Shown here: piece by piece, positions 10,391-31,719 of the stretch | Position numbering within the stretch: the stretch's first letter is position 1 | How the letters are laid out: each line of letters opens with the position of its first letter | From: Escherichia phage vB_EcoM_005 | Length of the DNA stretch: 64,000 nucleotides | Sequence record: MK295203 | Direction: 5' to 3' (one strand) | Made by a program: the position numbers and the translations under genes | The notes under the pieces: generated by a model | Told to the model about the DNA's origin: nothing | Seen by the model: only the letters and a program-made list of their open reading frames with translations | The model's database searches: none

Positions 10391-11409
10391 AAATTTTGAA
10401 TATAGGCGATTTGCATATCGGAGTAAAAGCCGACGACCCCTGGATTCAAGAAATCCAGCTTAACGGTATTAAACAGGCGGTAGAATATTCTAAAGCAAAC
10501 AATATTGATACGTGGATTCAATATGGTGATTGGTTCGATGTACGCAAGGCTATCACCCATAAATGTATGGAATTTAATCGTGGTCTAGTGGAAATTATCA
10601 GTGATGCAGGTATTAAAGTCCACGTTATAATTGGCAACCACGATGCAACGTTTAAAAATAGCATAACTCCTAATGCGGTTTCTGAACTTCTTACTCAGTA
10701 TGAAAATTTTACTATTTACGAGAAACCTACTACGGTTAACTTTGATGGCACTGAAATTGATTTGATTCCATGGATGTGTGAAGAAAACACGACTGATATC
10801 ATGGACCATATCAAAAATACTACTGCAGATTTCTGTATAGGTCACTGGGAATTAAATGGTTTCTATTTCTATAAAGGAATGAAATCTCACGGTTTAGAAC
10901 CTGATTTCCTTAAGAAGTATAAGCAAGTATGGTCTGGCCACTTCCACACCATTTCCGATGCAGCAAACGTTAAGTATATTGGTACGCCATGGACCCTGAC
11001 TGCAGGTGATGAAAATGACCCTCGCGGCTTCTGGATTTTCGATACAGAAACTCATAAGATGGATTTTGTCATCAATGAAACCTGTTGGCACCGTAAGATT
11101 CATTATCCTAACGCGACTATCGATTACAAAGATTTTACAAATATCGCAGTTCGTGTTATAGTCGATAAAATCGATGACGGGCTTACTAAGTTCGAATCTG
11201 AACTTGAAAAGGTTGTCCACTCTTTACGTATTGTGTCTAAGGTAGATAACAGTGTTGATATCGATGATTCTGAAGAGGAAGATGAAGTCAAGTCCCTCTT
11301 GGACATGATGTATGATTATATCGATGCCCTTCCTGACGGCCACACTGAAGACGATGTTAAAGCCCTTAAGACTATGGCTGCACAACTTTATAATGAGGTT
11401 ACACGATGA
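10387..11409 (+). CDS. 47: recombination nuclease subunit gp47 (Mre11-like)
   Basis: 340 aa; phosphoesterase motifs DLHIG, GNHD, GHWE, GHFH; synteny with 46. Confidence 0.9.
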   Translation: MKILNIGDLHIGVKADDPWIQEIQLNGIKQAVEYSKANNIDTWIQYGDWFDVRKAITHKCMEFNRGLVEIISDAGIKVHVIIGNHDATFKNSITPNAVSELLTQYENFTIYEKPTTVNFDGTEIDLIPWMCEENTTDIMDHIKNTTADFCIGHWELNGFYFYKGMKSHGLEPDFLKKYKQVWSGHFHTISDAANVKYIGTPWTLTAGDENDPRGFWIFDTETHKMDFVINETCWHRKIHYPNATIDYKDFTNIAVRVIVDKIDDGLTKFESELEKVVHSLRIVSKVDNSVDIDDSEEEDEVKSLLDMMYDYIDALPDGHTEDDVKALKTMAAQLYNEVTR

Positions 11410-11669
11410 CTTTAGACGAATTCAAAAAATCAGGCCTCGAACTAGAACACGACTGTATCGTTATTGATGACGATGGACAGCCTAGTACAATCAAGTTCTG
11501 GTTCGAGGCCGTGAGCACCCGTGATACCAACGAGCTTATTAAAGTCTATGTTGCCACCGATTGGGCTGTGGAATTTAGCTTTAATGTAATGGTAGATGAT
11601 ACTCCAGAAACATTAATCCATATGGCTGAATCATGCATCAAGGATGCTTATAACGATGAAGACTTTTAA
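11406..11669 (+). CDS. hypothetical acidic protein
   Basis: 87-aa ORF between 47 and 46. Confidence 0.4.
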   Translation: MTLDEFKKSGLELEHDCIVIDDDGQPSTIKFWFEAVSTRDTNELIKVYVATDWAVEFSFNVMVDDTPETLIHMAESCIKDAYNDEDF

Positions 11670-13140
11670 GTTAAAGAAAGTAACGTATAAAAATATTATG
11701 TCGGTAGGCCAGCAACCTATTACAATCCAACTTGATAAGGTCCAAAAGACCTTAGTCACCGGTAAAAATGGCGCTGGGAAATCTACGTTCCTTGAAGCCG
11801 TTACATTTGCTCTGTTCGGTAAGCCTTTTCGTGATGTTAAGAAAGGGCAATTAATTAACTCAAGTAATAAGAAAGACCTTTTGGTCGAACTGTGGATGGA
11901 ATATGATGGCAAAGAATACTACATCAAACGTGGGCAAAAACCCAACGTTTTTGAAATCTCTTGTGACGGTGAACGTCTTGATGAATCTGCCAGCAGTAAA
12001 GACTTCCAAGCGGAATTTGAACAGCTTATCGGAATGTCCTACACAAGCTTCAAACAGATTGTCGTACTTGGTACAGCAGGGTATACCCCTTTCATGGGTT
12101 TGTCGACCCCTGCGCGAAGAAAGCTCGTCGAAGACCTCTTAGAGGTTTCTGTATTAGCGGATATGGATAAGCTGAACAAATCTTTGATTCGTGAGACTAA
12201 TAGCCAAATCCAAGTAATCGACGTTAAACAGGATTCTATTACCCAGCAAATTAAAATTTATAATGACAACGAAGAACGTCAGCGTAAATTATCCGGGGTC
12301 ATCGTCGATGATGACCCTAGCGACTCTATGAGTGACCTGAGTAATAAAGGATTTGCAATCAAGAATGATATGGCAACCTTTACTAAGGTCGTGAAATTAT
12401 ACGAAACCGGCGGTAGTTGTCCTACATGTATGCAAGGATTGGAAGAGCACGGAAATATCCTTACTAAAATTAAGGATAAGAATTTTGAGCTTCAAAAATC
12501 TTTGGATAAGATTAATGAGCAGTACCAAGAACTCAAGCTCATTAAGGACCAAGTAACCGAACAACGTAATAAAGCGTTGGCTATTAAATCTCAGATAGCT
12601 ACTCATAAGCAACAAGCCATTACTGCCGTAGAGAAAGCTAAAAAAGTTAAAGTATTAATCGACCAAGCAGCTGCTGAGTTCGTAAGTAATGCCGAAGAGA
12701 TTGCCGCGCTTCAAGCAGAGCTTGATAAAATCGTCTCTACCAAATCGTCCTTAGTAATGGAAAAATATCATCGTATTATGGAAGCCGACTACGTCTTTAC
12801 ACTGGACGAAGAGTTCAATGAGACGATTAAATCACGTGGACGTGAAGACTTTAGTTATGCTTCATTTTCACAGGGTGAGAAAGCACGTATTGATATCGCA
12901 CTACTTTTTACATGGCGTGATATTGCTTCTAAGGTATCAGGTGTTAATATCAGCACGTTAATTCTTGATGAGGTATTTGACAGTGCTACTGACGCTGAAG
13001 GCGTTAAGACCATTGCAACCATCTTGAATAGCCTTGAGGATACGAACGTGTTCATTATTTCTCACCGAGACCATGACCCACAAGCTTATGGCCAGCATCT
13101 TCAAATGAAGAAAGTTGGACGATTCACGGTGATGGAATGA
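11656..13140 (+). CDS. 46: recombination ATPase gp46 (Rad50-like)
   Basis: Walker A GKNGAGKST, signature SFSQGEKARI, Walker B TLILDEVFD, H-loop FIISHRDH; coiled-coil middle. Confidence 0.9.
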   Translation: MKTFKLKKVTYKNIMSVGQQPITIQLDKVQKTLVTGKNGAGKSTFLEAVTFALFGKPFRDVKKGQLINSSNKKDLLVELWMEYDGKEYYIKRGQKPNVFEISCDGERLDESASSKDFQAEFEQLIGMSYTSFKQIVVLGTAGYTPFMGLSTPARRKLVEDLLEVSVLADMDKLNKSLIRETNSQIQVIDVKQDSITQQIKIYNDNEERQRKLSGVIVDDDPSDSMSDLSNKGFAIKNDMATFTKVVKLYETGGSCPTCMQGLEEHGNILTKIKDKNFELQKSLDKINEQYQELKLIKDQVTEQRNKALAIKSQIATHKQQAITAVEKAKKVKVLIDQAAAEFVSNAEEIAALQAELDKIVSTKSSLVMEKYHRIMEADYVFTLDEEFNETIKSRGREDFSYASFSQGEKARIDIALLFTWRDIASKVSGVNISTLILDEVFDSATDAEGVKTIATILNSLEDTNVFIISHRDHDPQAYGQHLQMKKVGRFTVME

Positions 13141-13328
13141 GTGATTTTATAACAGGCCAGCATCTGTTGGCCGTTCCTGAACTAAAGCGGTATGTTTTAG
13201 TTAATAACTTCTCTGGAGACGAACATCTTGTTACTGAAGATTATCTCCGAAATGCTTTTAAGTCAGAGTATGATAGAATCATGTCGAACAGGAACCCTGC
13301 CTGGTTCGTTTATGAATACTTTGATTAA
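13137..13328 (+). CDS. hypothetical protein
   Basis: 63-aa ORF, ATGA overlap with 46. Confidence 0.4.
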   Translation: MSDFITGQHLLAVPELKRYVLVNNFSGDEHLVTEDYLRNAFKSEYDRIMSNRNPAWFVYEYFD

Positions 13329-13336
13329 ACGTTAAG

Positions 13337-13360
13337 TGCTTTAAAATATTGATTTATAAT
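13337..13360 (+). promoter_or_regulatory. middle promoter (MotA box plus -10)
   Basis: TGCTTTA at 13337-13343 about 18 nt upstream of TATAAT 13355-13360. Confidence 0.45.
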
Positions 13361-13390
13361 ACATCTACCAACCAAATGAGAGAAAATATT

Positions 13391-13804
13391 ATGTTTGCCA
13401 ACGCTATTACTGTTAAAGATATCCAAGTTAAAACCATTCGTACTGATTCCAACCCACATAATCAAAACCGTATCCGTAAATCATGGGTACTGAATATTGA
13501 TACCAACTCTGCACGTCGCCTGCAATCTCTTCCACAAGAAACTAAGTTCATGCTCTACGGTATCATTGATAACGACGTATCCGATAAGTGGGTAGAAATT
13601 ATGCGTCGCCACTATAATGATTCACTGGCCGCAGGTGCTAAACTGGTTATCGACCGTGATGGTTCTGAACGTCTCGAAGATGATTATTGCGTAGATTTTG
13701 ACGAACAACTGCTTGAAGCTGGTGCTATTGTTGCTTCCCAGATTCCAGAGTATATTGAATCTCTGCCTGAATCCATTCGTAAACAAATGATCGTTATTGC
13801 TTAA
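13391..13804 (+). CDS. hypothetical protein at the T4 rpbA position (RpbA-like by synteny only)
   Basis: 137-aa ORF between 46 and 45 downstream of a middle promoter; no sequence-level confirmation. Confidence 0.4.
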   Translation: MFANAITVKDIQVKTIRTDSNPHNQNRIRKSWVLNIDTNSARRLQSLPQETKFMLYGIIDNDVSDKWVEIMRRHYNDSLAAGAKLVIDRDGSERLEDDYCVDFDEQLLEAGAIVASQIPEYIESLPESIRKQMIVIA

Positions 13805-13832
13805 TTAATTTTTGACTTGATAAGGAAACATT

Positions 13833-14531
13833 ATGAAATTCTCTAAAGAAACTCTGAACATTCTGAAAAACTTCTCCGGTATTAACCCAGGTATCATGCT
13901 TAAACCTGGTAACACTATTCTAACTCGTTCAGTAACGGGTGCAAGTTATGGTGAAGCTACTGTAAATGACACCTTTGATATCGAAGCCGCAATTTATGAT
14001 TTGAACGGCTTCTTAAGTATTCTGTCATTGGTATCTGATAGTGCTGAAGTTTCGGTAAGTGAAGACCAAACCACTTTAATTATTAAAGACCAACGTTCAA
14101 CTATTAAGTGGCCTATTGCCGACCCAAGCACAATTGCATTCCCAAGCAAAGCTATTCCGTTCCCAGTGGCTGAAGTTATTTTTGACCTTAAAGCTGAAGA
14201 TTATCAACAGTTGATGCGGGTGTCCTCTGGACTGAGTATTGATACATTTGCTATTACTGTAGACAATGGTAAAATTGTAATCAATGGTTACAAACAAGTT
14301 GATGATAAGGACCTGGCACGCCCATTGTATTCCTTAGTGGTTGCAGACCATGATGGCCCTGAATTCAAATTCATTATTAACAAAACTAATATGAAAATGA
14401 TGCCGGCCGATTACCATGTTCTGTTATGGGCACGCGGTGAAGGTCAGGACGCTCGTTTCGCTGCTAAGTTTGAAGGTTCACAAGCTTCTTACGTATTAGC
14501 TATGGAAGCAGGCTCAAGCCACTCGTTCTAA
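13833..14531 (+). CDS. 45: sliding clamp gp45
   Basis: 232 aa; near-colinear with my recollection of T4 gp45 (SGINPGIML, AAIYDLNGFL, NKTNMKMMPADY, LLWARGEG). Confidence 0.92.
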   Translation: MKFSKETLNILKNFSGINPGIMLKPGNTILTRSVTGASYGEATVNDTFDIEAAIYDLNGFLSILSLVSDSAEVSVSEDQTTLIIKDQRSTIKWPIADPSTIAFPSKAIPFPVAEVIFDLKAEDYQQLMRVSSGLSIDTFAITVDNGKIVINGYKQVDDKDLARPLYSLVVADHDGPEFKFIINKTNMKMMPADYHVLLWARGEGQDARFAAKFEGSQASYVLAMEAGSSHSF

Positions 14532-14995
14532 TGTATATATGTTATCATAATACGATAACCAACACTAAAACCAAGTGTGTCTATCATTATTTTGGTAGAC
14601 ACCGTGTTACTGCTGAAGAATACTACGGTACAGGTAAGTTTGTTAAGAAATGCAAACGAGAAAATGCTATTACTCCAGGTCTTTGGGAGTTTTGTGTTGA
14701 AGTTATCCATACAGTGGATACGTTTAAAGAAGCCAAGATTATTGAAGAAGAGCTTGTTAAAGAAGGCATATCAAAATATGGTATCCTTTGTGTTAATAAG
14801 AATCCTGGTGGTGATGGCGGTGTGGATTACCACACCGAAGAATCTAAACGTAAAATGTCAGAAACTAGAACAGGAAAATCAAGAATATTTTCCGAAAGTC
14901 ATAAAGAAAATTTAAGTAAACGAGCCAGAAAATACTCTGATGTTTGGTCCGAACCTGTATATTCAAATCTTAAAACCATTTGGCTGGAAACAGGT
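14531..14995 (+). CDS. degenerate GIY-YIG/NUMOD endonuclease-like module, in frame with gene 44
   Basis: 155 codons with no stop before the gp44 Met; VYHYFG...YYGTGK (GIY-YIG-like) and HTEESKRKMSE / SESHKENLSK (NUMOD3-like); start overlaps gene 45 stop (TAATG). Confidence 0.45.
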
Positions 14996-15967
14996 ATGTT
15001 ATTAAATGGTTTAACTATTAATGAAAACGACTTCATGTGGGAACAGAAATATCGTCCAGGTACTTTATCTGAGTGTATTCTGCCTGCGCATGATAAAGAA
15101 ACCCTCCAAGCCATTGTTAATAAGGGCCTAATCCCTAACATTATCCTAGTCTCTGCTTCACCAGGCACAGGTAAAACTACCGTAGCTAAAGCATTGTGTG
15201 CTGATACAAATTCAGATATGCTGTTTGTTAACGGTTCTGACTGCCGTATTGATTTCGTTCGTAACGAACTTACTCGTTTTGCATCTTCTAAATCTATCGA
15301 AGGTAAGCGTAAGGTAATTGTTATCGACGAATTCGACCGCGCTGGTGTTGCTGAAGCTCAACGTCACCTTCGTTCGTTCTTAGAAGCCTATTCCTCAAAC
15401 TGTTCTGTAATTATTACAGCAAACAATATTGATGGTATTATCGGTCCACTTCAATCCCGTTGTCGTGTTATTAAATTTGGTGAAGCCACTCCAGCCGACC
15501 AAACATCCATGATGAAAGAAATGATTCATCGTGCTGTAGCAATCTGTAAAAACGAAAATATCGAAGTCGAAGACCTTAAAGTTATTGCCGCTTTAGTTAA
15601 ACAAAACTTTCCTGACTTCCGTAAAACAGTTAACCAACTGGACCGTTACTCATCCAGTGGTAAAATCGATACAGGCATTTTGAGTATTGTAATGAATACC
15701 AATTCGCCTATCGATGAAGTAGTGGCTGCACTTAAAGATAAAAACTTTAAAGAACTCCGTGCATTAGCTCCACGCCATGTCAATGACTATTCCAACTTTA
15801 TTATGTCACTGGCTAACGAACTCTATGGTAAATTGCCTGGACCAAGCATTGTTAGAATGTATGAAATTGTCGGTGAAAATAACCAATACCACGGTATTGC
15901 GGCTAACCCAGAAATTCACATGACTTATCTGTTCATCCAACTTGCTCTGGAGCTCCAATGGCTATAA
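14996..15967 (+). CDS. 44: clamp-loader large subunit gp44
   Basis: AAA+ Walker A SPGTGKTT, Walker B VIVIDEFD, sensor IITANN; high identity to my recollection of T4 gp44 from MLLNG..EQKYRPG onward. Confidence 0.9.
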   Translation: MLLNGLTINENDFMWEQKYRPGTLSECILPAHDKETLQAIVNKGLIPNIILVSASPGTGKTTVAKALCADTNSDMLFVNGSDCRIDFVRNELTRFASSKSIEGKRKVIVIDEFDRAGVAEAQRHLRSFLEAYSSNCSVIITANNIDGIIGPLQSRCRVIKFGEATPADQTSMMKEMIHRAVAICKNENIEVEDLKVIAALVKQNFPDFRKTVNQLDRYSSSGKIDTGILSIVMNTNSPIDEVVAALKDKNFKELRALAPRHVNDYSNFIMSLANELYGKLPGPSIVRMYEIVGENNQYHGIAANPEIHMTYLFIQLALELQWL

Positions 15968-16530
15968 GTCTTTTTGATGATGACGTTGAACTGAACGAAC
16001 ATGAAGTTGCTTGGAAACAACGTAACGATGCTGCTATTCAAGCCTTGGCCGATTCATTTAAAGAAAAGGCTGAAAACGAATTGTTTGCCATTATGAACGA
16101 TATCACATATGGTAAGAACCAACGTAACTTGGCTCAGTCGGAAAACTACAATCAATTTTGGCTCGATAATAGTTTGAGCCAACATGTGGATTGCATTATG
16201 CAGGCTGCAATGGTTAACTGTTTGAAACTTGATGACCAAAGTCATTTCAACTATCTTTTACATGCCGTTCCTAAGGGTAAGAGATTTGGTAAATGGGCTA
16301 AGGCCCATGATGATGAAGTTAGTGTAGTTTTTATTACTCGTTTATTGATGAAATACCATTCAATTAATAATGATGACGCTTATCGTTATCTCGAGACTTA
16401 TAAAATTAAAGGCCATCTTCCGGCAGTGCTTAAGAAGATGAAAGGGTTGGTTACTGACGAATTCCTGAAATCCGTAACCAAAAATGTTAAAGAACAAAAA
16501 GACTTGAAAAAGAAAGCATTGGAATGGTAA
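15958..16530 (+). CDS. 62: clamp-loader small subunit gp62
   Basis: 190 aa between 44 and regA; start overlaps 44 stop. Confidence 0.85.
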   Translation: MAISLFDDDVELNEHEVAWKQRNDAAIQALADSFKEKAENELFAIMNDITYGKNQRNLAQSENYNQFWLDNSLSQHVDCIMQAAMVNCLKLDDQSHFNYLLHAVPKGKRFGKWAKAHDDEVSVVFITRLLMKYHSINNDDAYRYLETYKIKGHLPAVLKKMKGLVTDEFLKSVTKNVKEQKDLKKKALEW

Positions 16531-16536
16531 ATTAAA

Positions 16537-16899
16537 ATGATTGAAATTACTCTGAAACAACCTGAAGACTTCTTGAAAGTGAAAGAGACCCTAACTCGTA
16601 TGGGTATCGCTAATAATAAAGAAAAGAAACTATATCAATCCTGCCACATTCTGCAAAAGCAAGGGCTATATTATATCGTCCACTTTAAAGAGATGTTGCG
16701 TATGGACGGCCGTCAAGTTGATATCGATGGTGAAGACTACCAACGTCGTGATTCAATTGCCCAGCTTCTTAAGGAGTGGGGACTGATTGATATTGTAGAT
16801 GAATCTGAACTGTTCGAAATCACCAATAACTTCCGTGTCATTTCCTTTAAGCAGAAAAATGACTGGGAACTACTGTCTAAGTACACCATTGGTAATTAA
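16537..16899 (+). CDS. regA: translational repressor RegA
   Basis: 120 aa; MIEITLK.PEDFLKVKETLTRMGIANNK...FRVISFKQK matches my recollection of T4 RegA. Confidence 0.92.
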   Translation: MIEITLKQPEDFLKVKETLTRMGIANNKEKKLYQSCHILQKQGLYYIVHFKEMLRMDGRQVDIDGEDYQRRDSIAQLLKEWGLIDIVDESELFEITNNFRVISFKQKNDWELLSKYTIGN

Positions 16900-17022
16900 T
16901 ATGATTCTTGAAATTTATAAGTTACTACATCCGGGACAGCAAGTCTTCCAGGCTATGATTAGAACTAAAGACGAATATGGCAATCCGTCTATTAAACGTT
17001 TTACAATAGAAATTTAAGCAAA

Positions 17023-17040
17023 GGGACTTCGGTCCCTTTT
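17023..17040 (+). terminator. rho-independent terminator
   Basis: GGGAC-TTCG-GTCCC hairpin followed by TTTT. Confidence 0.5.
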
Positions 17041-17098
17041 GGAGTATAATGATTCATCAACAAACAAAAGACAATCACTCGTCTATAAAGGAAATGAA

Positions 17099-19711
17099 AT
17101 GCAAGAATTCTATTTGACAGTCGAACAAATCGGTGATAATATTCTCGAACGTTACATCGATAAAAATGGTAACGAACGTAGTCGTGAAGTTCCTTACAAG
17201 CCTACAATGTTTATGCATGCTAATCCAGAGCAAGCCGTAAAATACATTGATATCTATGGTAAGGGTTGTGTTAAGAAAGAATTCGACTCTATGCGTGATG
17301 CATCCCAATGGATGAAACGTATGGACGATATGGGTCTCGAAGCCCTGGGTATGGACGACTATAAATTAGCCTATTTGTCTGATACCTATCGTAAAGAAAT
17401 CAAATACGATTCTTCTAAGATTCGTATTGCTAACTTCGACATCGAGGTAACATCTCCTGATGGATTCCCTGAACCAGCTCAGGCTAAACATCCTATCGAT
17501 GCCATTACCCACTACGACTCGATTGACGATAAATTCTATGTATTCGACCTTTTAGTTTCACCTTATGGTACCGTTGAAGAGTGGTCTATTAAAATCGCTG
17601 AGAAACTCCAAGAAGAAGGTGGTGACGAAGTTCCACAAGAAATCATTGACAAAATCGTTTATCTTCCGTTTAATTCCGAAGAAGAAATGATGCTTGAGTA
17701 TCTGAATTTCTGGCAGCAGAAAACTCCTGTTATTTTGACTGGTTGGAACGTTGAGTCGTTTGACGTACCATACGTTTATAACCGTCTGAAAAATCTGTTT
17801 GGTGAGAACACTGCTAAGCGATTAAGCCCACACCGTAAGACTCGTGTTAAAGTTATCGAGAACATGTATGGTGCTCGTGAAATTATTACACTGTTCGGTA
17901 TCTCTGTTCTGGATTATATCGACCTTTATAAAAAATTCAGCTTTACCAACCAGCCTTCTTATTCTTTGGATTATGTTTCTGAATATGAATTGAAAGTAGG
18001 TAAGTTGAAATATGATGGTCCAATCTCCAAGTTACGTGAGACGAACCACCAACGATATATTTCCTATAACATTATCGACGTATATCGTGTAGTGCAGATT
18101 GATATGAAACGCCAGTTCATTCTTCTGAGTTTGGACATGGGTTATTATGCTAAGATGCAGATTCAGTCGGTGTTCAGTCCAATTAAGACTTGGGACGCTA
18201 TTATCTTTAATAGCCTTAAAGAACAAGGCAAGGTCATTCCACAAGCTCGTTCACACGTGGTCCAACCTTATCCTGGTGCTTTCGTTAAGGAACCTATTCC
18301 TAACGCATACAAATATGTAATGAGTTTTGACCTTACATCTCTGTACCCGAGTATTATTCGACAAGTGAATATAAGCCCAGAGACCATCGCAGGCACATTC
18401 GCTAATGCACCGATACATGAATATATTGCCGGAACAGCTCCGCGTCCTAGCGACGTCTACAGTTGCTCTCCTAACGGCATGATGTACTATAAAGACCGTG
18501 ATGGTGTGATTCCTACAGAAATCACTAAGGTGTTCTTACAACGTAAAGAACATAAAGGTTATATGCTTGCAGCTCAACGTAATGGCGAGTTAATTAAAGA
18601 AGCATTAGAAAATCCTAATCTGTCAGTTGATAGTCCACTGGATATCGATTATCGTTTTGACTTCTCTGACGAAATCAAAGCCAAGATTAAAACGCTGTCA
18701 GCACCTTCTTTAAAAGAAATGTTGTTCAGAGCCGAACGTACTGAAGTCGCAGGTATGACTGCTCAGATTAACCGTAAGTTGCTTATCAACTCCCTTTATG
18801 GTGCACTTGGTAACGTATGGTTCCGTTACTATGACCTCAGGAACGCAACTGCAATCACACTGTTTGGTCAAATGGCCCTCCAATGGATTGAACGTAAGGT
18901 TAACGAATATCTGAACAGCGTGTGTAAGACTGAAAATCAGAAGTTCGTGCTCTATGGTGATACTGACTCCATTTATGTTAAGGCAGATGCAATCATCAAT
19001 AAAGTAGGCGAAGATAAATTCCGTGACACTAACCACTGGGTCGACTTCTTAGATAAATTTGCACGTGAACGTATGGAACCGGCTATTGATGCAGGCTTCC
19101 GTGAGATGTGCGAGTACATGAACAACAAACAACACTTGATGTTCATGGACCGAGAAGCTATCGCAGGTCCTCCACTTGGTTCTAAAGGTCTTGGTGGATT
19201 CTGGACAGGCAAGAAACGTTATGCACTTAACGTTTGGGACATGGAAGGCACTCGTTATGCCGAACCACACTTGAAAATCATGGGTCTCGAAACTCAGAAA
19301 TCAAGTACACCTAAAGCGGTTCAGAAAGCTCTGAAAGAATGTATCCGTCGTATGCTTCAGGAAGGCGAGGCATCTTTGCAAGAATATTTCAAACAGTTTA
19401 ATAAGGAATTTAACGAACTGGACTATGTAAGCATTGCAGCAGTATCCAGTGCTAACAACATCGAGAAATATAATGAAGGCGGATTGGTATATGTACTGCC
19501 ACTTAAAGAAGGCAACCCATTCGGTGAAGCCTGTATGGCATGGCCGTCAGGTATTGAACTTCCGATTCAGATTCGTGACCAAGTCCTCCGTTGGATGGAC
19601 TACAACGTACTGTTCCAAAAGACCTTTATCAAGCCTCTGACTGGTTTTACCGAGTCTGCTAAAATCGACTACGAGAAAAAAGCAACATTATTTGACATGT
19701 TTGACTTTTAA
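17099..19711 (+). CDS. 43: DNA polymerase gp43 (family B)
   Basis: 870 aa from MQEFYLTVEQIG; exonuclease FDIEV, pol motifs SLYPSII, NSLYG, YGDTDS; closest in my recollection to the RB69 polymerase. Confidence 0.95.
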   Translation: MQEFYLTVEQIGDNILERYIDKNGNERSREVPYKPTMFMHANPEQAVKYIDIYGKGCVKKEFDSMRDASQWMKRMDDMGLEALGMDDYKLAYLSDTYRKEIKYDSSKIRIANFDIEVTSPDGFPEPAQAKHPIDAITHYDSIDDKFYVFDLLVSPYGTVEEWSIKIAEKLQEEGGDEVPQEIIDKIVYLPFNSEEEMMLEYLNFWQQKTPVILTGWNVESFDVPYVYNRLKNLFGENTAKRLSPHRKTRVKVIENMYGAREIITLFGISVLDYIDLYKKFSFTNQPSYSLDYVSEYELKVGKLKYDGPISKLRETNHQRYISYNIIDVYRVVQIDMKRQFILLSLDMGYYAKMQIQSVFSPIKTWDAIIFNSLKEQGKVIPQARSHVVQPYPGAFVKEPIPNAYKYVMSFDLTSLYPSIIRQVNISPETIAGTFANAPIHEYIAGTAPRPSDVYSCSPNGMMYYKDRDGVIPTEITKVFLQRKEHKGYMLAAQRNGELIKEALENPNLSVDSPLDIDYRFDFSDEIKAKIKTLSAPSLKEMLFRAERTEVAGMTAQINRKLLINSLYGALGNVWFRYYDLRNATAITLFGQMALQWIERKVNEYLNSVCKTENQKFVLYGDTDSIYVKADAIINKVGEDKFRDTNHWVDFLDKFARERMEPAIDAGFREMCEYMNNKQHLMFMDREAIAGPPLGSKGLGGFWTGKKRYALNVWDMEGTRYAEPHLKIMGLETQKSSTPKAVQKALKECIRRMLQEGEASLQEYFKQFNKEFNELDYVSIAAVSSANNIEKYNEGGLVYVLPLKEGNPFGEACMAWPSGIELPIQIRDQVLRWMDYNVLFQKTFIKPLTGFTESAKIDYEKKATLFDMFDF

Positions 19712-19713
19712 GT

Positions 19714-19743
19714 GTTTACATACCACATGGAACGTGGTAGTAT
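19714..19743 (+). promoter_or_regulatory. T4-type early promoter
   Basis: GTTTAC 19714-19719, TAGTAT 19738-19743, CCTATCAAC leader. Confidence 0.5.
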
Positions 19744-19774
19744 CCTTCCTATCAACTACTTAGAGGAAATTACA

Positions 19775-20011
19775 ATGGAAGCTTTAATCGTTAGTGCTGG
19801 TGTTTTAGGATTCGGTTCTCTGGCTATTATGTTCATTGGTTACTTTTTACCATGGATTTTAGCTCTTCTGCGAGGCACTCGTAGTAATGTAGGAATTTTC
19901 TTCCTTAATCTCCTGTTAGGTTGGACGATGATTGGTTGGGTAGTGGCTTTAATCTGGGCTATCGCTGCTGAACGTAAATCAAATGCACAAATCATTATTG
20001 TTAAACAGTAA
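19775..20011 (+). CDS. small two-TM membrane protein at the T4 imm position (Imm-like by synteny)
   Basis: 78 aa, two hydrophobic helices, directly downstream of gene 43. Confidence 0.5.
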   Translation: MEALIVSAGVLGFGSLAIMFIGYFLPWILALLRGTRSNVGIFFLNLLLGWTMIGWVVALIWAIAAERKSNAQIIIVKQ

Positions 20012-20020
20012 GGGAATCCA

Positions 20021-20521
20021 ATGAAAAAGTTAATTATCGCAATGAGTATGCTCCTATCAGGTTGCGCAGTCCAATATGGTGATGCAGTTTCGGCCGATGA
20101 AGTTGGTAAAGCTCGTATCGCAGCTGAACAGAAACAATTCGATGGCGAAATGAAATTCCGTGCAGGTTCAGGACTTGTGTATACCCGAGCTAATAATCAA
20201 TGTGGTAATAACTGTGCAAAATATGCTCAACATGAAATCGAATTCCAACGTGAACAAGAGTCCAAGCGTGAAGCGGTACTAGCCAAACACCAGGCAGAAA
20301 TGAAGCGCCAAGATGATTTGTATAAAAAGCAGAAATTGTATGCGATGTGCGTAAACCATATCAATCTACAGATTTCTATCCATGAGGCCCGTTATTACGA
20401 AATGCTCGAAACCGAGAGCTTTGATAAGGCCCGTGATTATAAGAAACAAATCAATAAGCTCAAGACCAAAGTGCCGGCAGCAATAGAACAGTGTATCGAA
20501 ATCGGTAAAGATAAGATTTAA
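20021..20521 (+). CDS. predicted lipoprotein
   Basis: signal peptide with lipobox LLSGC; 166 aa. Confidence 0.5.
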   Translation: MKKLIIAMSMLLSGCAVQYGDAVSADEVGKARIAAEQKQFDGEMKFRAGSGLVYTRANNQCGNNCAKYAQHEIEFQREQESKREAVLAKHQAEMKRQDDLYKKQKLYAMCVNHINLQISIHEARYYEMLETESFDKARDYKKQINKLKTKVPAAIEQCIEIGKDKI

Positions 20522-20581
20522 GCAGTATCAATTTATTAAAAATAGTGTATAATGTACCTACATTCACTTGAGGAACAGATA

Positions 20582-22255
20582 ATGAAAAAGGTTGTTATTT
20601 TAGGCGCAGGTCTTGGCTCACGGTTGTATCCAATTACTAACGAAATCCCGAAGGTATTGGTTAACTACAAACAACATACAGTACTAAAACATTTATATGA
20701 TTTGTATAGTAACCAATCAGATGAAATTATTCTGGTTATTCACAGCAAATTTAACGACCTCGTTAAAGGCTATATTAAATCCATTAACATGATTAATAGT
20801 GATAAGCCTAAATTCACTATTCGTAACGTAGATGTGGCCAATGGTTCAGCTCATGCTATCGATTGCATTGCTGAAGATATCATTGGCCATAACGTCCTGT
20901 TTAACTGGTGTGACATCATTCCTGAGGGTCATAAAGTTGAGTGGGATAACGACTACTGTTATACCTACGGGACTGACTGTCGTTTTACATTTGAAGAACC
21001 GTACTTGCGTGAAATTGGTACTGGCGGTGGCGTGGTTGGTTTGTATCAGGTGGCTAATTGGACAGGTTTCGACCGTTCTAATTATGGTGAAGACCTTGCC
21101 GATAACCTAGATTCAATGGTCTATTTGACTGAACGTAAGCTAGACTTTGTAGTTGATGTCGGTGACAAATTGAAACTGGCTAAGGCCCATGAAGAATCCG
21201 AAATTAACCGTGAATTTAATAAATTAGAGTTCACTGAGAATCTGGCTATTAAAGTACCAACTAACGAATTAGGTAAAGAAATCCAATCTAAAGAAATCAA
21301 TTGGTATAATTCTATTGATTCTGAATTTGTTCCGAGCATTGTAGACTTTGCTCCAGGCGAATTCATTAAAATGGAACGTATCTTTGGTCGCACCATGGCA
21401 GATGCCTACCGGTTTATGTCTAAAGAAACTAAAGTCCTCATGGTTTATAAGGTCATTAGTGCATTACGTTCATTCGGTGGAACTATCGATAACCCATCTG
21501 ATGAGCAATGGTATTCCGATGTTAAGAAAGAAGTATTGGACAAGGTCCTGATTCGTAATGCTTCTATTGCCGGATTGATTGAAGGCTTTGCTCCACAGGG
21601 TATTACCCATGTCAATGACTTTAAGGTAGGCGACCCTGAAAAACTTCTTCGTCATGCACTAGAAATTCTGTCTGAACATAAAGAACCGTACCAACTTATT
21701 CATGGCGACCCGCACTACAGTAATATTATGTTGTCTGACGAAGGTGATATTAAAATCATCGACCCACGTGGTTATTTTGGTAATAGTTCTAAAGGCCCTG
21801 CGATTTATGATGAAGCTAAGGTGCTTTATTCTATCGATGGTTATGACAAATTTAACTCTGACCCTCTATGGGGTGGCTTAACCCGTAACGGAACTCGTGT
21901 ATTCGTTGATATTGAAAAGGTCATGCCTTTAGACGATATTCCGATGTGTACATTTAAGCACAAGCTCTGGATTGCTGTTATCTGGATGGCATTGGCAGGT
22001 TACTTTAAAAATAACCCTCTGAAAGCTCTGGGTGCTTATTACAATGGGCTATATCAACTGAGCGTGCTGCTGAAGCGGCATCCTCGTAAGCGTAAGCTTA
22101 TCACAGGTGAATTTGTCGATGAAGTTCGTGACCCTATTACGGCTCAAATTATCACTCGTTGTCCTGATAAGTGGGTTTTGCTTGACCAAGAAACTGGTGT
22201 AAAATATAAACCTACAGGTTCTACTGAACTCCACAAACAATGGAAGAAAATTTAA
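20582..22255 (+). CDS. bifunctional sugar-1-phosphate nucleotidyltransferase / APH-family kinase
   Basis: N-terminal ILGAGLGSRLYPIT...PK (sugar nucleotidyltransferase signature); C-terminal HGDPHYSNIML...IIDPRGYFG (aminoglycoside/choline-kinase-like catalytic loop). Confidence 0.6.
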   Translation: MKKVVILGAGLGSRLYPITNEIPKVLVNYKQHTVLKHLYDLYSNQSDEIILVIHSKFNDLVKGYIKSINMINSDKPKFTIRNVDVANGSAHAIDCIAEDIIGHNVLFNWCDIIPEGHKVEWDNDYCYTYGTDCRFTFEEPYLREIGTGGGVVGLYQVANWTGFDRSNYGEDLADNLDSMVYLTERKLDFVVDVGDKLKLAKAHEESEINREFNKLEFTENLAIKVPTNELGKEIQSKEINWYNSIDSEFVPSIVDFAPGEFIKMERIFGRTMADAYRFMSKETKVLMVYKVISALRSFGGTIDNPSDEQWYSDVKKEVLDKVLIRNASIAGLIEGFAPQGITHVNDFKVGDPEKLLRHALEILSEHKEPYQLIHGDPHYSNIMLSDEGDIKIIDPRGYFGNSSKGPAIYDEAKVLYSIDGYDKFNSDPLWGGLTRNGTRVFVDIEKVMPLDDIPMCTFKHKLWIAVIWMALAGYFKNNPLKALGAYYNGLYQLSVLLKRHPRKRKLITGEFVDEVRDPITAQIITRCPDKWVLLDQETGVKYKPTGSTELHKQWKKI

Positions 22256-22638
22256 TGTCGCATCGAGTAGAAAATAAGCCCCATTTATGTTTTGACATCG
22301 ATAATACAATCACGGTTTGGAACCATGACCGTGATTACGAAAACTTTAAACCGGACACCGAAATGGTGTCCATGATTAATAAGCTTTATGATGAAGGGTA
22401 CGAGATTACATTGTTCACTGCTCGTGGTATGACTTCATGTGGCCCTGGTCGAATCTTGGTTGAAGTAGTTCCTGCATTGGTTAAGAACCTTGAAAAGATT
22501 GGATTGAAATATCATAATCTGCTTACACATAAGCCGAGTTATACTTTTATCATCGATGACCGAGCAATCCGTCCTGACCACTTTAAAGAAATGGTTCGTG
22601 AAGGAACTCTTGAAACCTATAAGGCATATCATCCATGA
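22255..22638 (+). CDS. small HAD-superfamily phosphatase
   Basis: motif I FDIDNTIT (DxDxT), motif II TLFTARG, C-terminal IIDDR; 127 aa. Confidence 0.5.
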   Translation: MSHRVENKPHLCFDIDNTITVWNHDRDYENFKPDTEMVSMINKLYDEGYEITLFTARGMTSCGPGRILVEVVPALVKNLEKIGLKYHNLLTHKPSYTFIIDDRAIRPDHFKEMVREGTLETYKAYHP

Positions 22639-23171
22639 AACCAAAAATCATTGTTATCGACGGCCCGGATAATTCCGGGAAGTCCACTTTAATTGAATCA
22701 CTTTTATCTGATAAGAAATATCGTCTTATTGATTTTCCTAAAAAGATTAACGGTAAATGCATTTCATTAGGGACCGATAATGACAAGGCTTTAGTCGAGA
22801 CGTTGTATAAGTTTTTAGACCCTAATTTTGTCTACATCTTAGACCGTGGGTATCCTAGTAATATTGTTTACTCGGGATTCCTTCGTGGTGAAATGGACCC
22901 TTATGTAGAACTGGAAGATTGGAAAGGGTTTAAATCTGAATTCAATATTATTGAGGTTATTTTAACCCGTAACCCATTAGATGAAGACTTCGAAGATGAC
23001 CTTATTAAATTAACCAAAGATGAGTTCAACCTAACTATCCGGCAGTATGAAACATGTTTTGAAAACGTGTTTAAAATCTTAAATCACGACGGCCATAATA
23101 ATTTGCTTAATGTTGATATGGTAGAATTAAAACGTCTGAATGAATATATTGAAAATAAGGTGAATAAATGA
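22635..23171 (+). CDS. P-loop kinase (dNMP/thymidylate-kinase-like)
   Basis: N-terminal Walker A IVIDGPDNSGKST; 178 aa. Confidence 0.5.
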   Translation: MKPKIIVIDGPDNSGKSTLIESLLSDKKYRLIDFPKKINGKCISLGTDNDKALVETLYKFLDPNFVYILDRGYPSNIVYSGFLRGEMDPYVELEDWKGFKSEFNIIEVILTRNPLDEDFEDDLIKLTKDEFNLTIRQYETCFENVFKILNHDGHNNLLNVDMVELKRLNEYIENKVNK

Positions 23172-23866
23172 AACACATTACCGCTGTTAGTTTTGAAAAC
23201 GCGTTTAAGCAAATGAACGAAGAAATCCTGGAAGCTCCACAGTTTGCAGTTGATTCTCGTATCGGCCGTTGTTATGAAATTGGTTCTGCTTCGGTAGAAG
23301 TACTGGATGCAAGCACCTATAAATTCACCGACCCTCGTATTAATCGTATCAACTATGATTATGCCGAATCTTTCTGGAAATTTATGATTTCTGGTGGTAC
23401 TGATGCCGCCGAAGCATTTAAGGAATACCCTAATGTTGCTAAGTTCATTGATAAGCCGAAAAGTGACGTATTGCCTGCAAACTTCAACACTTTCTATGGA
23501 CCTCGAATTGTGGCCCAACTCCCAGCCCTACTTAAAGAGCTTAAAGAAAAGCCTAACTCGAGACGAGTTGTGTTCCAAATTCTCCAAGAACAAGACCAAG
23601 CTCTCCTTGATTCTGACGAATCCTTAGAATATCCGTGTACCGATTCGGTAACATATTATATTCGTGATGGACGTCTGTATGCACACACTCATATGCGTTC
23701 ACAGAACTGTGCTATCGTTATGCAGCTGGATTTCTATCTGCAGGGTAAACTGATGGCCTTTATTGCTGAACAGTGTGGTGTTGGTCTGGGTACGTATTCC
23801 CATACTATGGTTAGTGCACACGTGTTTGAACGTGATTTTGACTACGTTCGAGGATTCCTGAAATGA
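23168..23866 (+). CDS. thymidylate-synthase-fold pyrimidine hydroxymethylase (gp42-like)
   Basis: catalytic Cys context EYPCTDSVTYYIRD and MRSQN..D align with my recollection of T4 gp42 (FMCTNTVQYLIRD / MRSND); much more divergent from T4 than neighbouring core genes. Confidence 0.6.
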   Translation: MKHITAVSFENAFKQMNEEILEAPQFAVDSRIGRCYEIGSASVEVLDASTYKFTDPRINRINYDYAESFWKFMISGGTDAAEAFKEYPNVAKFIDKPKSDVLPANFNTFYGPRIVAQLPALLKELKEKPNSRRVVFQILQEQDQALLDSDESLEYPCTDSVTYYIRDGRLYAHTHMRSQNCAIVMQLDFYLQGKLMAFIAEQCGVGLGTYSHTMVSAHVFERDFDYVRGFLK

Positions 23867-24657
23867 GTCTGTTTATCGTTCCTATTTTCAGTATGCGTAG
23901 TTACGAAACAGGTGAATATGCCGTCCTTAAGGACGGTAATTTTCAACTCCATTTAAACCGTGCTCGCCCAGGTGATTATCTGGCTTATCCTAGAAATTCG
24001 AGCGATATCAAAGAATGTATTGAATTGTTTCCTGAACTGAATTTTGTGCCACTTTGGTATAAAGAAAATGCTTATGAAACTCGTAAACATTTTTGGTCTG
24101 AAAATGAGTTCGTCGTTGATTCATTAATTGAATACTATGACTGTTCAGGCTTAGTAACCGATATCACAGGTTATGATGGCACTCAGACTGTACAATTCAA
24201 CTTTAACATTACAATGGACCCTGAAGTTCCTCGTTATTATATCGATGAGTTTATTGATATCGACGTGTCTTCAGTTGAACGTTCGATTTATACTACAGTC
24301 CTGAATCAATGCCAGAAAGACGTCCTGGTGTCACGAGGTGCGTCCTCTGATAAGATTTTTGTAGACCAAAAGGTAATTAATCCCGCAGTAATTGAGCGTT
24401 ACTCTGAAGGTCTAGCGCCTATTAAAATTGATGGTATTTTCCATCCATTCCGTATCTCAGATAAATGCTACCAATTCGAAAGAGTTGTAGACCAAGCTGC
24501 GGCCGTATATTATCAGATTCTGAAATCAAGACCTCATATCATTTATCATGAGAATCCTGGTTTAGTATTCCATCCTGGTCTGGCTGAATTCATTTATTTC
24601 GGTGCCCACATCCATTCTGAGCACGAAATGCCAAGTTATGAGGACGTAGTATGCTAG
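23863..24657 (+). CDS. hypothetical protein at the T4 beta-gt position (candidate DNA glycosyltransferase)
   Basis: 264-aa ORF between gp42-like gene and uvsX; contains a DxD-like FIDIDVSS motif; no confident fold assignment. Confidence 0.45.
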   Translation: MSLFIVPIFSMRSYETGEYAVLKDGNFQLHLNRARPGDYLAYPRNSSDIKECIELFPELNFVPLWYKENAYETRKHFWSENEFVVDSLIEYYDCSGLVTDITGYDGTQTVQFNFNITMDPEVPRYYIDEFIDIDVSSVERSIYTTVLNQCQKDVLVSRGASSDKIFVDQKVINPAVIERYSEGLAPIKIDGIFHPFRISDKCYQFERVVDQAAAVYYQILKSRPHIIYHENPGLVFHPGLAEFIYFGAHIHSEHEMPSYEDVVC

Positions 24658-30145: not shown

Positions 30146-30676
30146 ATGGGTTCAGGAGGGCCTTTAAGTAGGGCAAAGGAAAAATACGGGCTGGAAAATT
30201 TCGAAAGAGAAATTCTAGAGTTTTTCCCTAATGAAGACCTAATGAACGAAGCTGAGGCAGCTATAGTAACTAAAGAATTTATTAAAAGACCCGATGTTTA
30301 TAATGCTGTGCCGGGCGGCAGAAGTTTTAGAGTAGGCCCGACGGAAAATTATGATTCTAAACGGCATTCAGAAGTCCAGATAAAAAGCTGGGATAATCCT
30401 GAAAAAAGGGCCAAGCAAGCCAAAACTATAAAAGCTATCGCATGGAAAGAATGGGATAATTTAGAGGAAGTAAAAATCCGACATAAAGAATCCTGCAGTA
30501 AAGCACAAAGAAAACATAAAGCCTGGAAAGATTATAATGTATTAAAAGAGATTTGGGTTAAATTAGGAAAACCTGGATACGGTAGGTTTAATAATGAATT
30601 AATTAAGCTTGGTTACGAAAAAAGAAATTACCAAAGAATGGTAGATGCTTTTAATAAAGAGGAAGAACTAGTATGA
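30146..30676 (+). pseudogene. GIY-YIG homing endonuclease remnant (N-terminally truncated)
   Basis: begins inside the catalytic domain (KYMGSGG...KEKYGLENFEREILE); NUMOD-like linker; C-terminal module shared with the two HNH ORFs downstream. Confidence 0.5.
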
Positions 30677-30940: not shown

Positions 30941-31144
30941 GAAAAGCTTAATTTCTGTGAACGATTAGATAGAATGCCAAACGACCATCCTATTATCAAA
31001 TATGTGACACTACGTTGCATTCCTGAAAACAAATGGAATCGTGAAAAGCTTAATTTCTGTGAACGATTAGATAGAATGCCAAAGGACCATCCTATTATCA
31101 AATATGTAACACTACGTTGCATTCCTGAAAACAAATGGAATCGC
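30941..31144. repeat. tandem duplication, 2 x 102 bp (in frame) within primase
   Basis: two copies differing at 3 positions. Confidence 0.8.
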
Positions 31145-31496
31145 TTATGGTTTACTAAAGAATGGCCGGCATTGGTGAACTCTGTCAATCCAGGGACCTA
31201 TTCTAAATTGAAATGCCTGAGCCTCGTTTGGTTATTCCAATTTTCAATAAGAATAAACAAATTGAAAGTTTTCAGGGTCGAGCCTTACGTAAAGATGCTC
31301 CACAAAAATATATTACAATACGTTGTGGTTTACTAAAGAATGGCCGGCATTAGTTAACTCTGTGAATCCAGGGACCTATTCTAAAGAAATGCCTGAACCT
31401 CGTTTGGTTATTCCAATTTTCAATAAGAATAAACAAATTGAAAGTTTTCAGGGTCGAGCCTTACGTAAAGATGCTCCACAAAAATATATTACAATA
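31145..31496. repeat. tandem duplication, 2 x about 178 bp within primase
   Basis: copies nearly identical; copy 1 carries a small indel and the period is not a multiple of 3. Confidence 0.8.
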
Positions 31497-31690: not shown

Positions 31691-31719
31691 CACAATTAAG
31701 CGTATGCAACGATTAGTTG

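What the first reader, a model, noticed from the sequence alone, without database searches (positions are those of the whole stretch)
14531..14995. Degenerate GIY-YIG/NUMOD endonuclease module fused in frame to clamp-loader gene 44
The reading frame that encodes gp44 opens 155 codons upstream of the conserved gp44 start, with its first ATG overlapping the gene 45 stop (TAATG). The extension has GIY-YIG-like (VYHYFG...YYGTGK) and NUMOD3-like (HTEESKRKMSE, SESHKENLSK) motifs but is too short for a complete endonuclease. Either a homing-endonuclease relic has been captured as an N-terminal extension of gp44, or gp44 initiates internally at 14996 and the relic is translated separately or not at all.
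Basis: partly seen in the sequence, partly recalled or inferred. Interest (0 to 1): 0.6.

Follow-up and report, generated by a model that had tools for sequence, protein, structure and literature searches.

The report
Endonuclease–clamp-loader fusion is probably an assembly gap
The apparent fusion of a homing-endonuclease fragment to the phage clamp-loader gene comes from a 112-base gap found only in this error-laden genome record; related phages carry an ordinary, separate, full-length GIY-YIG homing endonuclease gene between genes 45 and 44.

Summary
The 478-codon ORF (14531-15967) exists as described, with TAATG overlapping the gene 45 stop. It equals GenBank AZV01061.1 of Escherichia phage vB_EcoM_005, a JS98-like Dhakavirus. 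The 155-codon extension is not a decayed relic. It is the first 155 of 192 codons of a Seg-like GIY-YIG/NUMOD3 homing endonuclease. In Bp7, PSD2002, MX01 and two metagenomic T4-like contigs this gene stands free between genes 45 and 44.

The fusion arises from a 112-bp gap private to this record. The gap removes the endonuclease's C-terminal helical tail and stop codon. It also removes gene 44's Shine-Dalgarno sequence, its A-rich RegA-operator-like leader, its ATG and its first codons.

This gap is one of about 27 private gaps in the window, 12 of them exactly 99 bp. There are also about a dozen private near-tandem duplications. Together they cut or frameshift gp43, gp46, gp52, gp61, dda, dexA, rIIA and nrdC. 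The genome is about 15 kb shorter than its relatives. No other phage record or metagenome holds the junction.

The fusion is most likely a mis-assembly (about 0.8). A genuine deletion remains possible (about 0.15 in all). Interest is low.

The parts
13833..14531 (+). Gene 45 (sliding clamp, 232 aa). Its TAA stop overlaps the ATG of the next ORF (TAATG).
   Evidence: annotated gp45 in PSD2002/Bp7 at the homologous position.
14531..14824 (+). GIY-YIG catalytic domain (aa 1-98) of a Seg-like free-standing homing endonuclease. Key residues: Y5, Y20, G22, E72, N89.
14831..14929 (+). Two NUMOD3-like helices (aa 101-116 HTEESKRKMSETRTGK; aa ~121-133 SESHKENLSKRAR).
   Evidence: Pfam NUMOD3 17.0 bits, below the 20.4 cut-off. 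41 of 46 aligned relatives hit NUMOD3.
14999..15002 (.). Junction of the 112-bp gap relative to PSD2002/Bp7 (L001 1701-1812), with 2-3 nt of ambiguity (TA). Missing: endonuclease codons 157-192 and the stop, gene 44 SD GAGG, the A-rich leader AAAATAATA, the ATG and the first 3-4 codons.
   Evidence: Alignments A1 and A4; gap placement. No other record holds the junction.
14996..15967 (+). Gene 44 body (clamp-loader large subunit). From N159 onward it matches native gp44 from residue 6. The ATG at 14996 is really endonuclease codon M156.
   Evidence: Native gp44 in relatives is 319-325 aa.
15958..16530 (+). Gene 62 (clamp-loader small subunit).
   Evidence: annotation of relatives.
16537..16899 (+). 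regA (translational repressor). Its presumed gene 44 operator lies inside the missing 112 bp.
   Evidence: RegA operators described in PMC3014915.

Best explanation
The window is the deposited genome of Escherichia phage vB_EcoM_005, a Dhakavirus. Like Bp7 and PSD2002, the phage carries a free-standing Seg-like GIY-YIG/NUMOD3 homing endonuclease gene (192 codons) inserted between genes 45 and 44. Its start is coupled to the gene 45 stop (TAATG). Its last codons (..FNEENNNE*) double as the Shine-Dalgarno and A-rich RegA-type leader of gene 44, whose ATG precedes the endonuclease stop by a few bases. In the record, 112 bp spanning exactly this overlap are missing, and this happens to join endonuclease codon 156 (ATG) in frame to gp44 residue ~5. 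I infer that the missing 112 bp are an assembly error and not biology. On that reading the real phage makes a separate ~22-kDa endonuclease and a normal ~325-aa gp44 from its own, RegA-controllable start. Shown: the gap, its privacy to this record, the record-wide damage, and the identity and completeness of the endonuclease in relatives. Inferred: that this particular gap is artefactual, the RegA control, and homing activity. Speculative cause: two closely related strains were co-assembled, contigs broke at polymorphic sites, and joins lost a fixed ~k-mer-sized overlap (floor of 99 bp) or kept both alleles (false duplications).
For: 1. Identity of the record. The exact 478-aa protein is AZV01061.1/YP_010100614.1 of vB_EcoM_005, on a 155,101-bp contig and on one contig only. 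Other Dhakavirus genomes are about 165-177 kb.
2. The gap. The window lacks 112 bp that PSD2002, Bp7, MX01 and two metagenomic alleles all have.
3. The gap is one of many. In window 10720-24187 there are seven private gaps (209, 99, 99, 112, 99, 99, 132 bp). PSD2002 and Bp7 have none apart from mobile-element indels. Over the window there are about 27 gaps with a sharp floor and mode at 99 bp (12 of exactly 99), in random codon phase.
4. The gaps damage conserved genes. gp43 lacks RB69 residues 797-829. gp46 has two 33-aa losses. gp52 and dda are frameshifted. dexA, rIIA and nrdC are cut.
5. All 41 other Dhakavirus records that span the g43 and g46 junctions keep the 99 bp.
6. About a dozen private near-tandem duplications (47-224 bp) fragment primase gene 61 and expand the asiA/t region. 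The copies differ mainly at third codon positions (21 of 29), as alleles of two co-assembled strains would.
7. Point divergence from PSD2002 is natural (131 synonymous vs 19 non-synonymous changes), so only the structural changes are abnormal.
8. The junction is absent from 50,697 phage records, IMG/VR and JGI metagenomes.
9. Homologues at 55-78% identity are always free-standing between g45 and g44, with a 320-325-aa gp44.
Against: The gap is 112 bp, not the modal 99. It leaves an in-frame join with an ATG right at the junction, which gives a near-native gp44 N-terminus (MLLNGLT.. vs MSKVVNGLT..). That is what selection for a replacement start codon would produce after a real deletion. The 2-3 nt of junction microhomology also fit illegitimate recombination. 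No reads were available, so the artefact is inferred from the state of the rest of the record, not shown at this site. The first-stage reader chose this gap because it reads cleanly, so the in-frame join (1 in 3 by chance) carries a selection bias.
Confidence: 0.8

Rival explanations
1. The 112-bp deletion is real: a decaying homing endonuclease gene lost its 3' end together with the gene 44 initiation region. The survivors are phages in which the deletion placed endonuclease codon M156 (ATG 14996) in frame five codons into gene 44. gp44 is then made mostly from this internal ATG, with a weak GGA at -10..-8 and AGGT abutting the ATG. Alternatively it is made as a 54-kDa fusion read through from the gene 45-coupled start. 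The fusion would be a by-product and RegA control of gene 44 would be lost.
For: The join is in frame and the ATG sits exactly at the junction. The resulting N-terminus MLLNGLTINEND compares with native MSKVVNGLTINEND. The size differs from the 99-bp class. There is TA microhomology. From general knowledge of homing endonuclease life cycles, loss of such genes by deletion is common.
Against: The record has about 27 comparable private gaps and about a dozen false-looking duplications in 64 kb, several incompatible with a viable phage. The junction is found nowhere else. The retained 465 nt show zero substitutions against the intact gene, so there is no other sign of decay. The replacement initiation region is poor. 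The promoter scan is at chance level, 9 sites found vs 6.7 +/- 2.7 expected.
Confidence: 0.13
2. The fusion is real and functional: a GIY-YIG nuclease domain, stripped of its own DNA-binding tail, is tethered to the four gp44 subunits of the clamp loader. This delivers a nuclease to primer-template junctions or replication forks.
For: Only the open reading frame and the intact catalytic residues. From general knowledge, RFC1 shows that clamp-loader AAA+ subunits can carry N-terminal extensions.
Against: Everything listed against the real-deletion rival applies here. In addition, the architecture does not recur among 5.8 billion clustered proteins: only this one contig carries it. A nuclease on every gp44 subunit of an essential replisome component would probably be harmful.
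Confidence: 0.02
3. The upstream 465 nt are non-coding or a dead pseudogene in this whole phage lineage, and the open frame is chance.
For: There is no Pfam GIY-YIG hit on the single sequence, and no obvious SD precedes 14531.
Against: The ORF is conserved at 55-80% protein identity across five alleles with open frames of 188-197 aa. The catalytic positions are invariant. Profile and fold evidence for GIY-YIG is strong.
Confidence: 0.02

Closest known systems
T4 Seg proteins (SegA-SegG): free-standing GIY-YIG homing endonucleases of T-even phages (Pfam PF01541/PF19835 plus NUMOD3 PF07460)
   Same: Both have an N-terminal GIY-YIG domain of about 95 aa, followed by NUMOD3 helices and a small helical DNA-binding tail, in a protein of about 190-220 aa. 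Both genes sit between conserved essential genes, vary by presence or absence among close relatives, and are nearly identical between phages whose flanks differ.
   Different: The insertion site is new (between genes 45 and 44). The sequence is too divergent for Pfam to call from one sequence. The I-TevI Arg27 equivalent is not evident. No cleavage or homing data exist. In this record the tail is missing.
I-TevI catalytic domain (PDB 1LN0/1MK0)
   Different: I-TevI is intron-encoded, is 245 aa long, and has a zinc finger plus a helix-turn-helix DNA-binding domain. Its Arg27 region is an insertion relative to this family.
T4/RB69 gene 44 translational operator bound by RegA
   Same: The relatives' gene 44 leader GAGGAAAAUAAUAAUGAGU resembles the T4 gene 44 site AAAUUAUGAUU and the RB69 RegA SELEX consensus AAUAAUAAUAA (PMC3014915). 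regA lies two genes downstream.
   Different: In endonuclease-carrying phages the operator is embedded in the endonuclease's last codons. In this record it is absent. RegA binding has not been tested in any Dhakavirus.
False gaps and false duplications in mixed-strain short-read assemblies
   Same: The gap length has a fixed minimum (99 bp). The duplicated copies differ at synonymous sites. Base substitutions look natural while the structure is damaged. The genome is about 15 kb too short.
   Different: The assembly method of this record is unknown to me, so the k-mer/overlap mechanism is a conjecture.

Membership tests
GIY-YIG nuclease superfamily | GIY and YIG motifs with their two tyrosines | tested here: met
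   Y5 (Y-I-C-Y) and Y20-F21-G22 are invariant in 46-sequence alignment A3. They align to the GIY and YVG motifs of I-TevI.
GIY-YIG nuclease superfamily | Catalytic Glu and Asn (I-TevI E75, N90) | tested here: met
   E72 and N89 are invariant and align to I-TevI E75 and N90.
GIY-YIG nuclease superfamily | Conserved Arg (I-TevI R27) | tested here: inconclusive
   I-TevI R27 falls in a 9-residue insertion relative to the family profile. The clade has R23 and R25 (GRHR), but their equivalence is not established.
GIY-YIG nuclease superfamily | Alpha/beta GIY-YIG fold | tested here: met
GIY-YIG nuclease superfamily | Pfam PF01541/PF19835 hit above the curated threshold | tested here: not met
   There is no hit even at E <= 10 for the window ORF, the PSD2002 ORF or the MX01 ORF. 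Profile-level evidence replaces it: hhalign 97.3%, and 21 and 16 of 46 aligned relatives hit PF01541 and PF19835 respectively.
NUMOD3 DNA-binding motif (PF07460) | Pfam hit at the gathering score | tested here: inconclusive
   17.0 bits against a cut-off of 20.4, at residues 101-116. 41 of 46 relatives pass.
Free-standing homing endonuclease gene of T4-like phages | Own ORF between conserved genes, present in some close relatives and absent in others | tested here: met
   It is present in Bp7, PSD2002, MX01, SHP1, LQ5 and two metagenomic contigs. It is absent, with a 55-nt intergenic region in IME08, from IME08, JS98, JS10, WG01 and others. In this window the ORF has no stop of its own.
Free-standing homing endonuclease gene of T4-like phages | Element more conserved than its flanks (recent lateral spread) | tested here: met
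   0 of 465 differences from PSD2002 within the element, against 25 of 696 in gene 45 and 17 of 957 in gene 44.
Free-standing homing endonuclease gene of T4-like phages | Cleaves the endonuclease-less allele and is preferentially inherited in mixed infection | not testable with these tools
   This needs cleavage assays and phage crosses.
Natural gene fusion (multidomain protein) | Same architecture recurs in independent genomes | tested here: not met
   The 478-aa protein is on one contig only. The junction is absent from the phages collection, IMG/VR and JGI metagenomes. All homologues are unfused.
Natural gene fusion (multidomain protein) | The surrounding sequence record is structurally sound | tested here: not met
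   About 27 private gaps and about a dozen private duplications break conserved genes.
T4 gp44 clamp-loader large subunit | AAA+ module plus Gp44 lid and C-terminal collar domains | tested here: met
   PF00004, PF21328 (5e-36) and PF21429 (3.6e-29); PHROG 168 at 4.4e-127 over 317 of 323 residues.

The most novel reading that the evidence does not exclude
The 112-bp deletion is genuine. vB_EcoM_005 then expresses its essential clamp-loader subunit either as a GIY-YIG-nuclease-gp44 chimera, translationally coupled to the sliding-clamp gene, or from a start codon borrowed from inside a homing endonuclease gene. Either way it would have lost RegA control. That would be a natural case of a selfish endonuclease gene being welded onto, and becoming required for expression of, an essential replication gene.
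Probability: 0.12. Interest if true: 0.55.

Novelty: not a real feature. Interest (0 to 1): 0.15.

Why it matters
The result matters mainly as a caution. A RefSeq protein (YP_010100614.1, 478 aa, 'clamp loader of DNA polymerase') and much of this genome record appear to be damaged by assembly gaps and duplications, so features read from it should not be taken at face value.

The real biology underneath is modest but useful. A previously unnamed Seg-like GIY-YIG homing endonuclease occupies the gene 45/44 junction in a subset of Dhakaviruses, where it is annotated 'hypothetical protein'. Its 3' end overlaps the gene 44 translation-initiation and RegA-type operator region. This is a tidy example of how such selfish genes nest into essential operons.

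If the deletion were real, it would show a homing endonuclease becoming indispensable for expression of a replication gene.

Tried and rejected
- Single-sequence searches gave no GIY-YIG call: Pfam, NCBIfam and PDB phmmer. Profile and fold methods were needed.
- The promoter/terminator scan around the junction was at chance level, so it says nothing about an internal promoter for gene 44.
- I considered that the window had been edited in silico. I rejected this because the exact 478-aa product is in GenBank/RefSeq and the base substitutions are overwhelmingly synonymous.
- I considered codon-aware deletions. I rejected this because the gap phases are 0, 1 and 2.
- I considered that the gaps are natural small-ORF losses. 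I rejected this for the class as a whole, because 12 are exactly 99 bp, several sit inside gp43, gp46 and rIIA, and all 41 other records keep the g43 and g46 segments.
- I looked for a publication describing how vB_EcoM_005 was assembled. Only one paper mentions it, as a source of a tifA homologue.
- I tested whether block identities flip between PSD2002-like and Bp7-like at the junctions, as a chimera would show. There was no clear pattern.
- I examined polymorphism at the gap edges. Mismatches do cluster next to several junctions, but this does not settle the mechanism.

Full report
**1. What is in the sequence**

ORF 14531..15967 (+) encodes 478 aa. Its ATG overlaps the gene 45 stop as TAATG. 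Residues 156-478 are an unmistakable T4-type gp44: Pfam Gp44_lid 5e-36, Gp44_C 3.6e-29 and AAA 2e-16, and PHROG 168 at 4.4e-127. The first 155 residues hit PHROG 314 'homing endonuclease' at 4.7e-17. In Pfam they hit only NUMOD3, below threshold at 17.0 vs 20.4 bits.

**2. Where the window comes from**

The region is 98% identical to Escherichia phages PSD2002 and Bp7, which are Dhakaviruses (JS98-like, T4-type). The exact 478-aa protein is GenBank AZV01061.1 / RefSeq YP_010100614.1, 'clamp loader of DNA polymerase', of Escherichia phage vB_EcoM_005. It is held on a single contig of 155,101 bp. Complete Dhakavirus genomes in the collection are about 165-177 kb.

**3. What relatives have at this site**

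- PSD2002, Bp7 and MX01 carry a separate ORF of 192, 192 and 188 aa between genes 45 and 44. It is annotated 'hypothetical protein', and its stop lies a few bases after the gene 44 ATG. gp44 there is about 325 aa.
- IME08, JS98, JS10, WG01 and most other Dhakaviruses lack the ORF. In IME08, 55 nt separate the gene 45 stop from the gene 44 ATG; they contain a GGGAGGA-ATC-TCCTCCC hairpin and a GAGGAAATTAATATG initiation region.
- More distant homologues (55-65% identity) lie at exactly the same place in a 169-kb T4-like contig from a human gut metagenome and in a 27-kb Logan contig. Both are free-standing (197 and 192 aa) and are followed by a gp44 of 320-325 aa.

**4. What creates the fusion**

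Alignment A1 and A4 show that the window lacks 112 bp that every other allele has. The gap lies between GGTATGT and TA(T)TAAATGG (window 14999-15002, with a 2-3 nt ambiguity). The missing bases encode:

- endonuclease residues 157-192 and the stop codon;
- the gene 44 Shine-Dalgarno GAGG;
- the A-rich spacer AAAATAATA;
- the gene 44 ATG and its first 3-4 codons.

The two genes are in different frames (571 nt between their starts) and 112 = 1 mod 3, so the join is in frame. Endonuclease codon M156 (ATG 14996) now sits where gp44 would begin: MLLNGLTINEND, against native MSKVVNGLTINEND. The missing leader resembles known RegA operators, namely the T4 gene 44 site AAAUUAUGAUU and the RB69 RegA SELEX consensus AAUAAUAAUAA (review PMC3014915). 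As written, the record therefore lacks gene 44's own initiation region and its presumed RegA site. RegA binding here is an inference.

**5. The gap is one of many**

- A three-way alignment of window 10720-24187 with PSD2002 and Bp7 shows seven window-private gaps: 209, 99, 99, 112, 99, 99 and 132 bp. The two relatives differ from each other only by a 772-bp homing-endonuclease insertion and a 230-bp insertion.
- Across the whole window, breaks in colinearity with Bp7 give about 27 private gaps. Twelve are exactly 99 bp. A few measure 94-100 bp. The rest are 112, 127, 132, 152, 159, 166, 209, 255, 299 and 324 bp. The distribution thus has a sharp floor and mode at 99 bp.
- The gaps fall in all three codon phases with 0-5 nt of microhomology.
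- They damage conserved genes. gp43 loses 33 residues that align to RB69 gp43 797-829. gp46 loses two 33-residue segments. A 152-bp gap frameshifts gene 52, giving 395 aa against 442. A 127-bp gap splits dda into 99 + 336 aa. dexA, rIIA (twice) and nrdC are also cut.
- At the gp43 and gp46 junctions, every one of the 41 other Dhakavirus records that span the site keeps the 99 bp.
- The window also holds about a dozen private near-tandem duplications of 47-224 bp. These break primase gene 61 into at least three ORFs with a repeated peptide. They also expand about 715 bp of the asiA/holin region to about 1,665 bp.
- The duplicate copies differ mostly at third codon positions (21 of 29 differences). 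This is what is expected if both alleles of two co-assembled, closely related strains were written in tandem.
- The base substitutions that separate the window from PSD2002 are natural: 129 of 160 are at third positions, with 131 synonymous against 19 non-synonymous codon changes.

The organism is therefore real and only the structure of the record is abnormal. A phage with all these lesions is implausible. A genome 10-15 kb short of its relatives, with a fixed minimum gap length, points to assembly. A possible mechanism is that contigs broke at strain polymorphisms and were joined with loss of a k-mer-sized overlap. I could not test that mechanism.

**6. Is this particular gap also an artefact?**

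Most likely yes, at about 0.8. It is private to the record. It is absent from 50,697 phage records, IMG/VR and JGI metagenomes. It belongs to the same size class as the other gaps. It removes an initiation region that is conserved in all other endonuclease-carrying alleles. The retained 465 nt show no decay at all, with 0 differences from PSD2002, while gene 45 differs at 25 of 696 positions and gene 44 at 17 of 957.

Some points argue the other way. The size is 112 rather than 99. The join is in frame, with an ATG exactly at the junction and a near-native N-terminus, which is what selection would leave after a real deletion. I keep about 0.13 for a real deletion with internal or read-through translation, and about 0.02 for a functional nuclease-clamp-loader chimera. 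The replacement initiation region is poor: AGGT abuts the ATG and GGA sits at -10..-8. The promoter scan is uninformative.

**7. What the endonuclease is**

- A profile built from the clade retrieves thousands of proteins of about 200-250 aa. Most of the best 120 carry NUMOD3 (PF07460), many carry GIY-YIG (PF01541) and/or SegE_GIY-YIG (PF19835), and some are named 'group I intron endonuclease'.
- In a 46-sequence alignment, Y5, T10, N11, Y20, G22, Y31, G33, G35, E72, N89 and G93-G94 are invariant.
- A profile of the N-terminal domain alone matches a Pfam-GIY-YIG-positive set at hhalign probability 97.3%, E 1.9e-11.
- The family profile hits the I-TevI catalytic domain among PDB sequences at E 8.9e-5, with GIY, YIG, Glu75 and Asn90 aligned. 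I-TevI Arg27 lies in an insertion, so its counterpart is unresolved.

The intact protein is thus a compact Seg-type enzyme: a GIY-YIG domain, two NUMOD3 helices and a small helical DNA-binding tail. The record lacks most of that tail.

**8. How it most likely works in the real phage (inferred)**

The endonuclease is translated at a low level by termination-reinitiation at the gene 45 stop (TAATG, with no SD of its own). By analogy with the T4 Seg enzymes, it would cut the endonuclease-less allele near the 45/44 junction during mixed infection and be copied in by repair. This would co-convert the divergent 5' end of gene 44 (MSKVVNGLTINEND against MLTVNNNE in IME08). Its patchy distribution and its zero divergence between phages with diverged flanks fit recent spread. 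Cleavage and homing are untested.

**9. Verdict**

- The sequence observation is confirmed.
- The endonuclease identity is supported.
- The reading of a 'degenerate relic captured by gp44' is not supported.
- The fusion is best regarded as a defect of the deposited record.
- The underlying gene is an unnamed member of a well-known kind.
- Interest is low, apart from flagging the quality of the record.

Noticed in passing
window 1440-59740 (for example 2783, 3353, 5819, 12297, 12774, 16916, 19485, 24505, 44942, 46089, 46749, 59737): There are twelve gaps of exactly 99 bp, plus about 15 others of 94-324 bp, relative to Bp7/PSD2002. All are private to this record and fall in random codon phase. 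They hit nrdC, gp46, gp43, rIIA, dda, dexA, gp52 and other genes.
   Followed up: yes
window 30941-31687: Near-tandem duplications (101, ~176 and 47 nt; copies 94-98% identical) break primase gene 61 into at least three ORFs with a repeated peptide (EKLNFCERLDRMP.DHPIIKYVTLRCIPENKWNR x2).
   Followed up: partly
window 55461-57461: Nested duplications (224, 207, 172, 117, 103, 60 and 51 nt; 96-99% identical) expand the arn.2/asiA/holin-t region from about 715 bp in Bp7 to about 1,665 bp. The differences between copies are mostly at third codon positions.
   Followed up: partly
window 30146-30676 (+): A second Seg-like ORF (176 aa) lies just upstream of gene 61. It begins at the G-S-G...KYGLENFEREIL part and so lacks the GIY/YIG N-terminus. 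It may also be truncated by a gap. No near-identical DNA exists in other phage records.
   Followed up: partly
window 31717-34210: This is a cluster of mobile-element-like ORFs between genes 61 and 56. It holds two HNH-type ORFs (31717-32370 and 33413-34210) and two gene-56-like (dCTPase) ORFs (32536-32955 and 32930-33379) that share 79-97% identical repeats at 424-nt spacing. It is unclear whether these are real paralogues or another false duplication.
   Followed up: no
window 27800, 37505, 50105, 53034: There are four copies of a ~63-nt motif, GTTTACA(N~14)CATGATACTATAGACCTATCAACT. They look like T4-type early promoters with a conserved downstream leader.
   Followed up: no
window 14531-14995 vs L001 1232-1696: The endonuclease segment has 0 differences in 465 nt from PSD2002, whereas flanking gene 45 has 25 in 696 and gene 44 has 17 in 957. 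This is consistent with recent lateral spread of the element.
   Followed up: yes
L004 (IME08) 1233-1287: The endonuclease-free allele has a perfect 7-bp stem hairpin (GGGAGGA-ATC-TCCTCCC) and a TATAAT-like box between genes 45 and 44. Both are replaced wholesale in endonuclease-carrying phages. The first ~10 codons of gene 44 also differ between the two allele types, which makes them a candidate target or immunity region.
   Followed up: no
window 11644-11660: A 209-bp private gap removes almost all of gene 46.1 and the gene 46 initiation region. The listed gp46 ORF then opens four codons early (MLIT-MKTFKL). This is a second in-frame-looking start created by a gap in the same record.
   Followed up: partly
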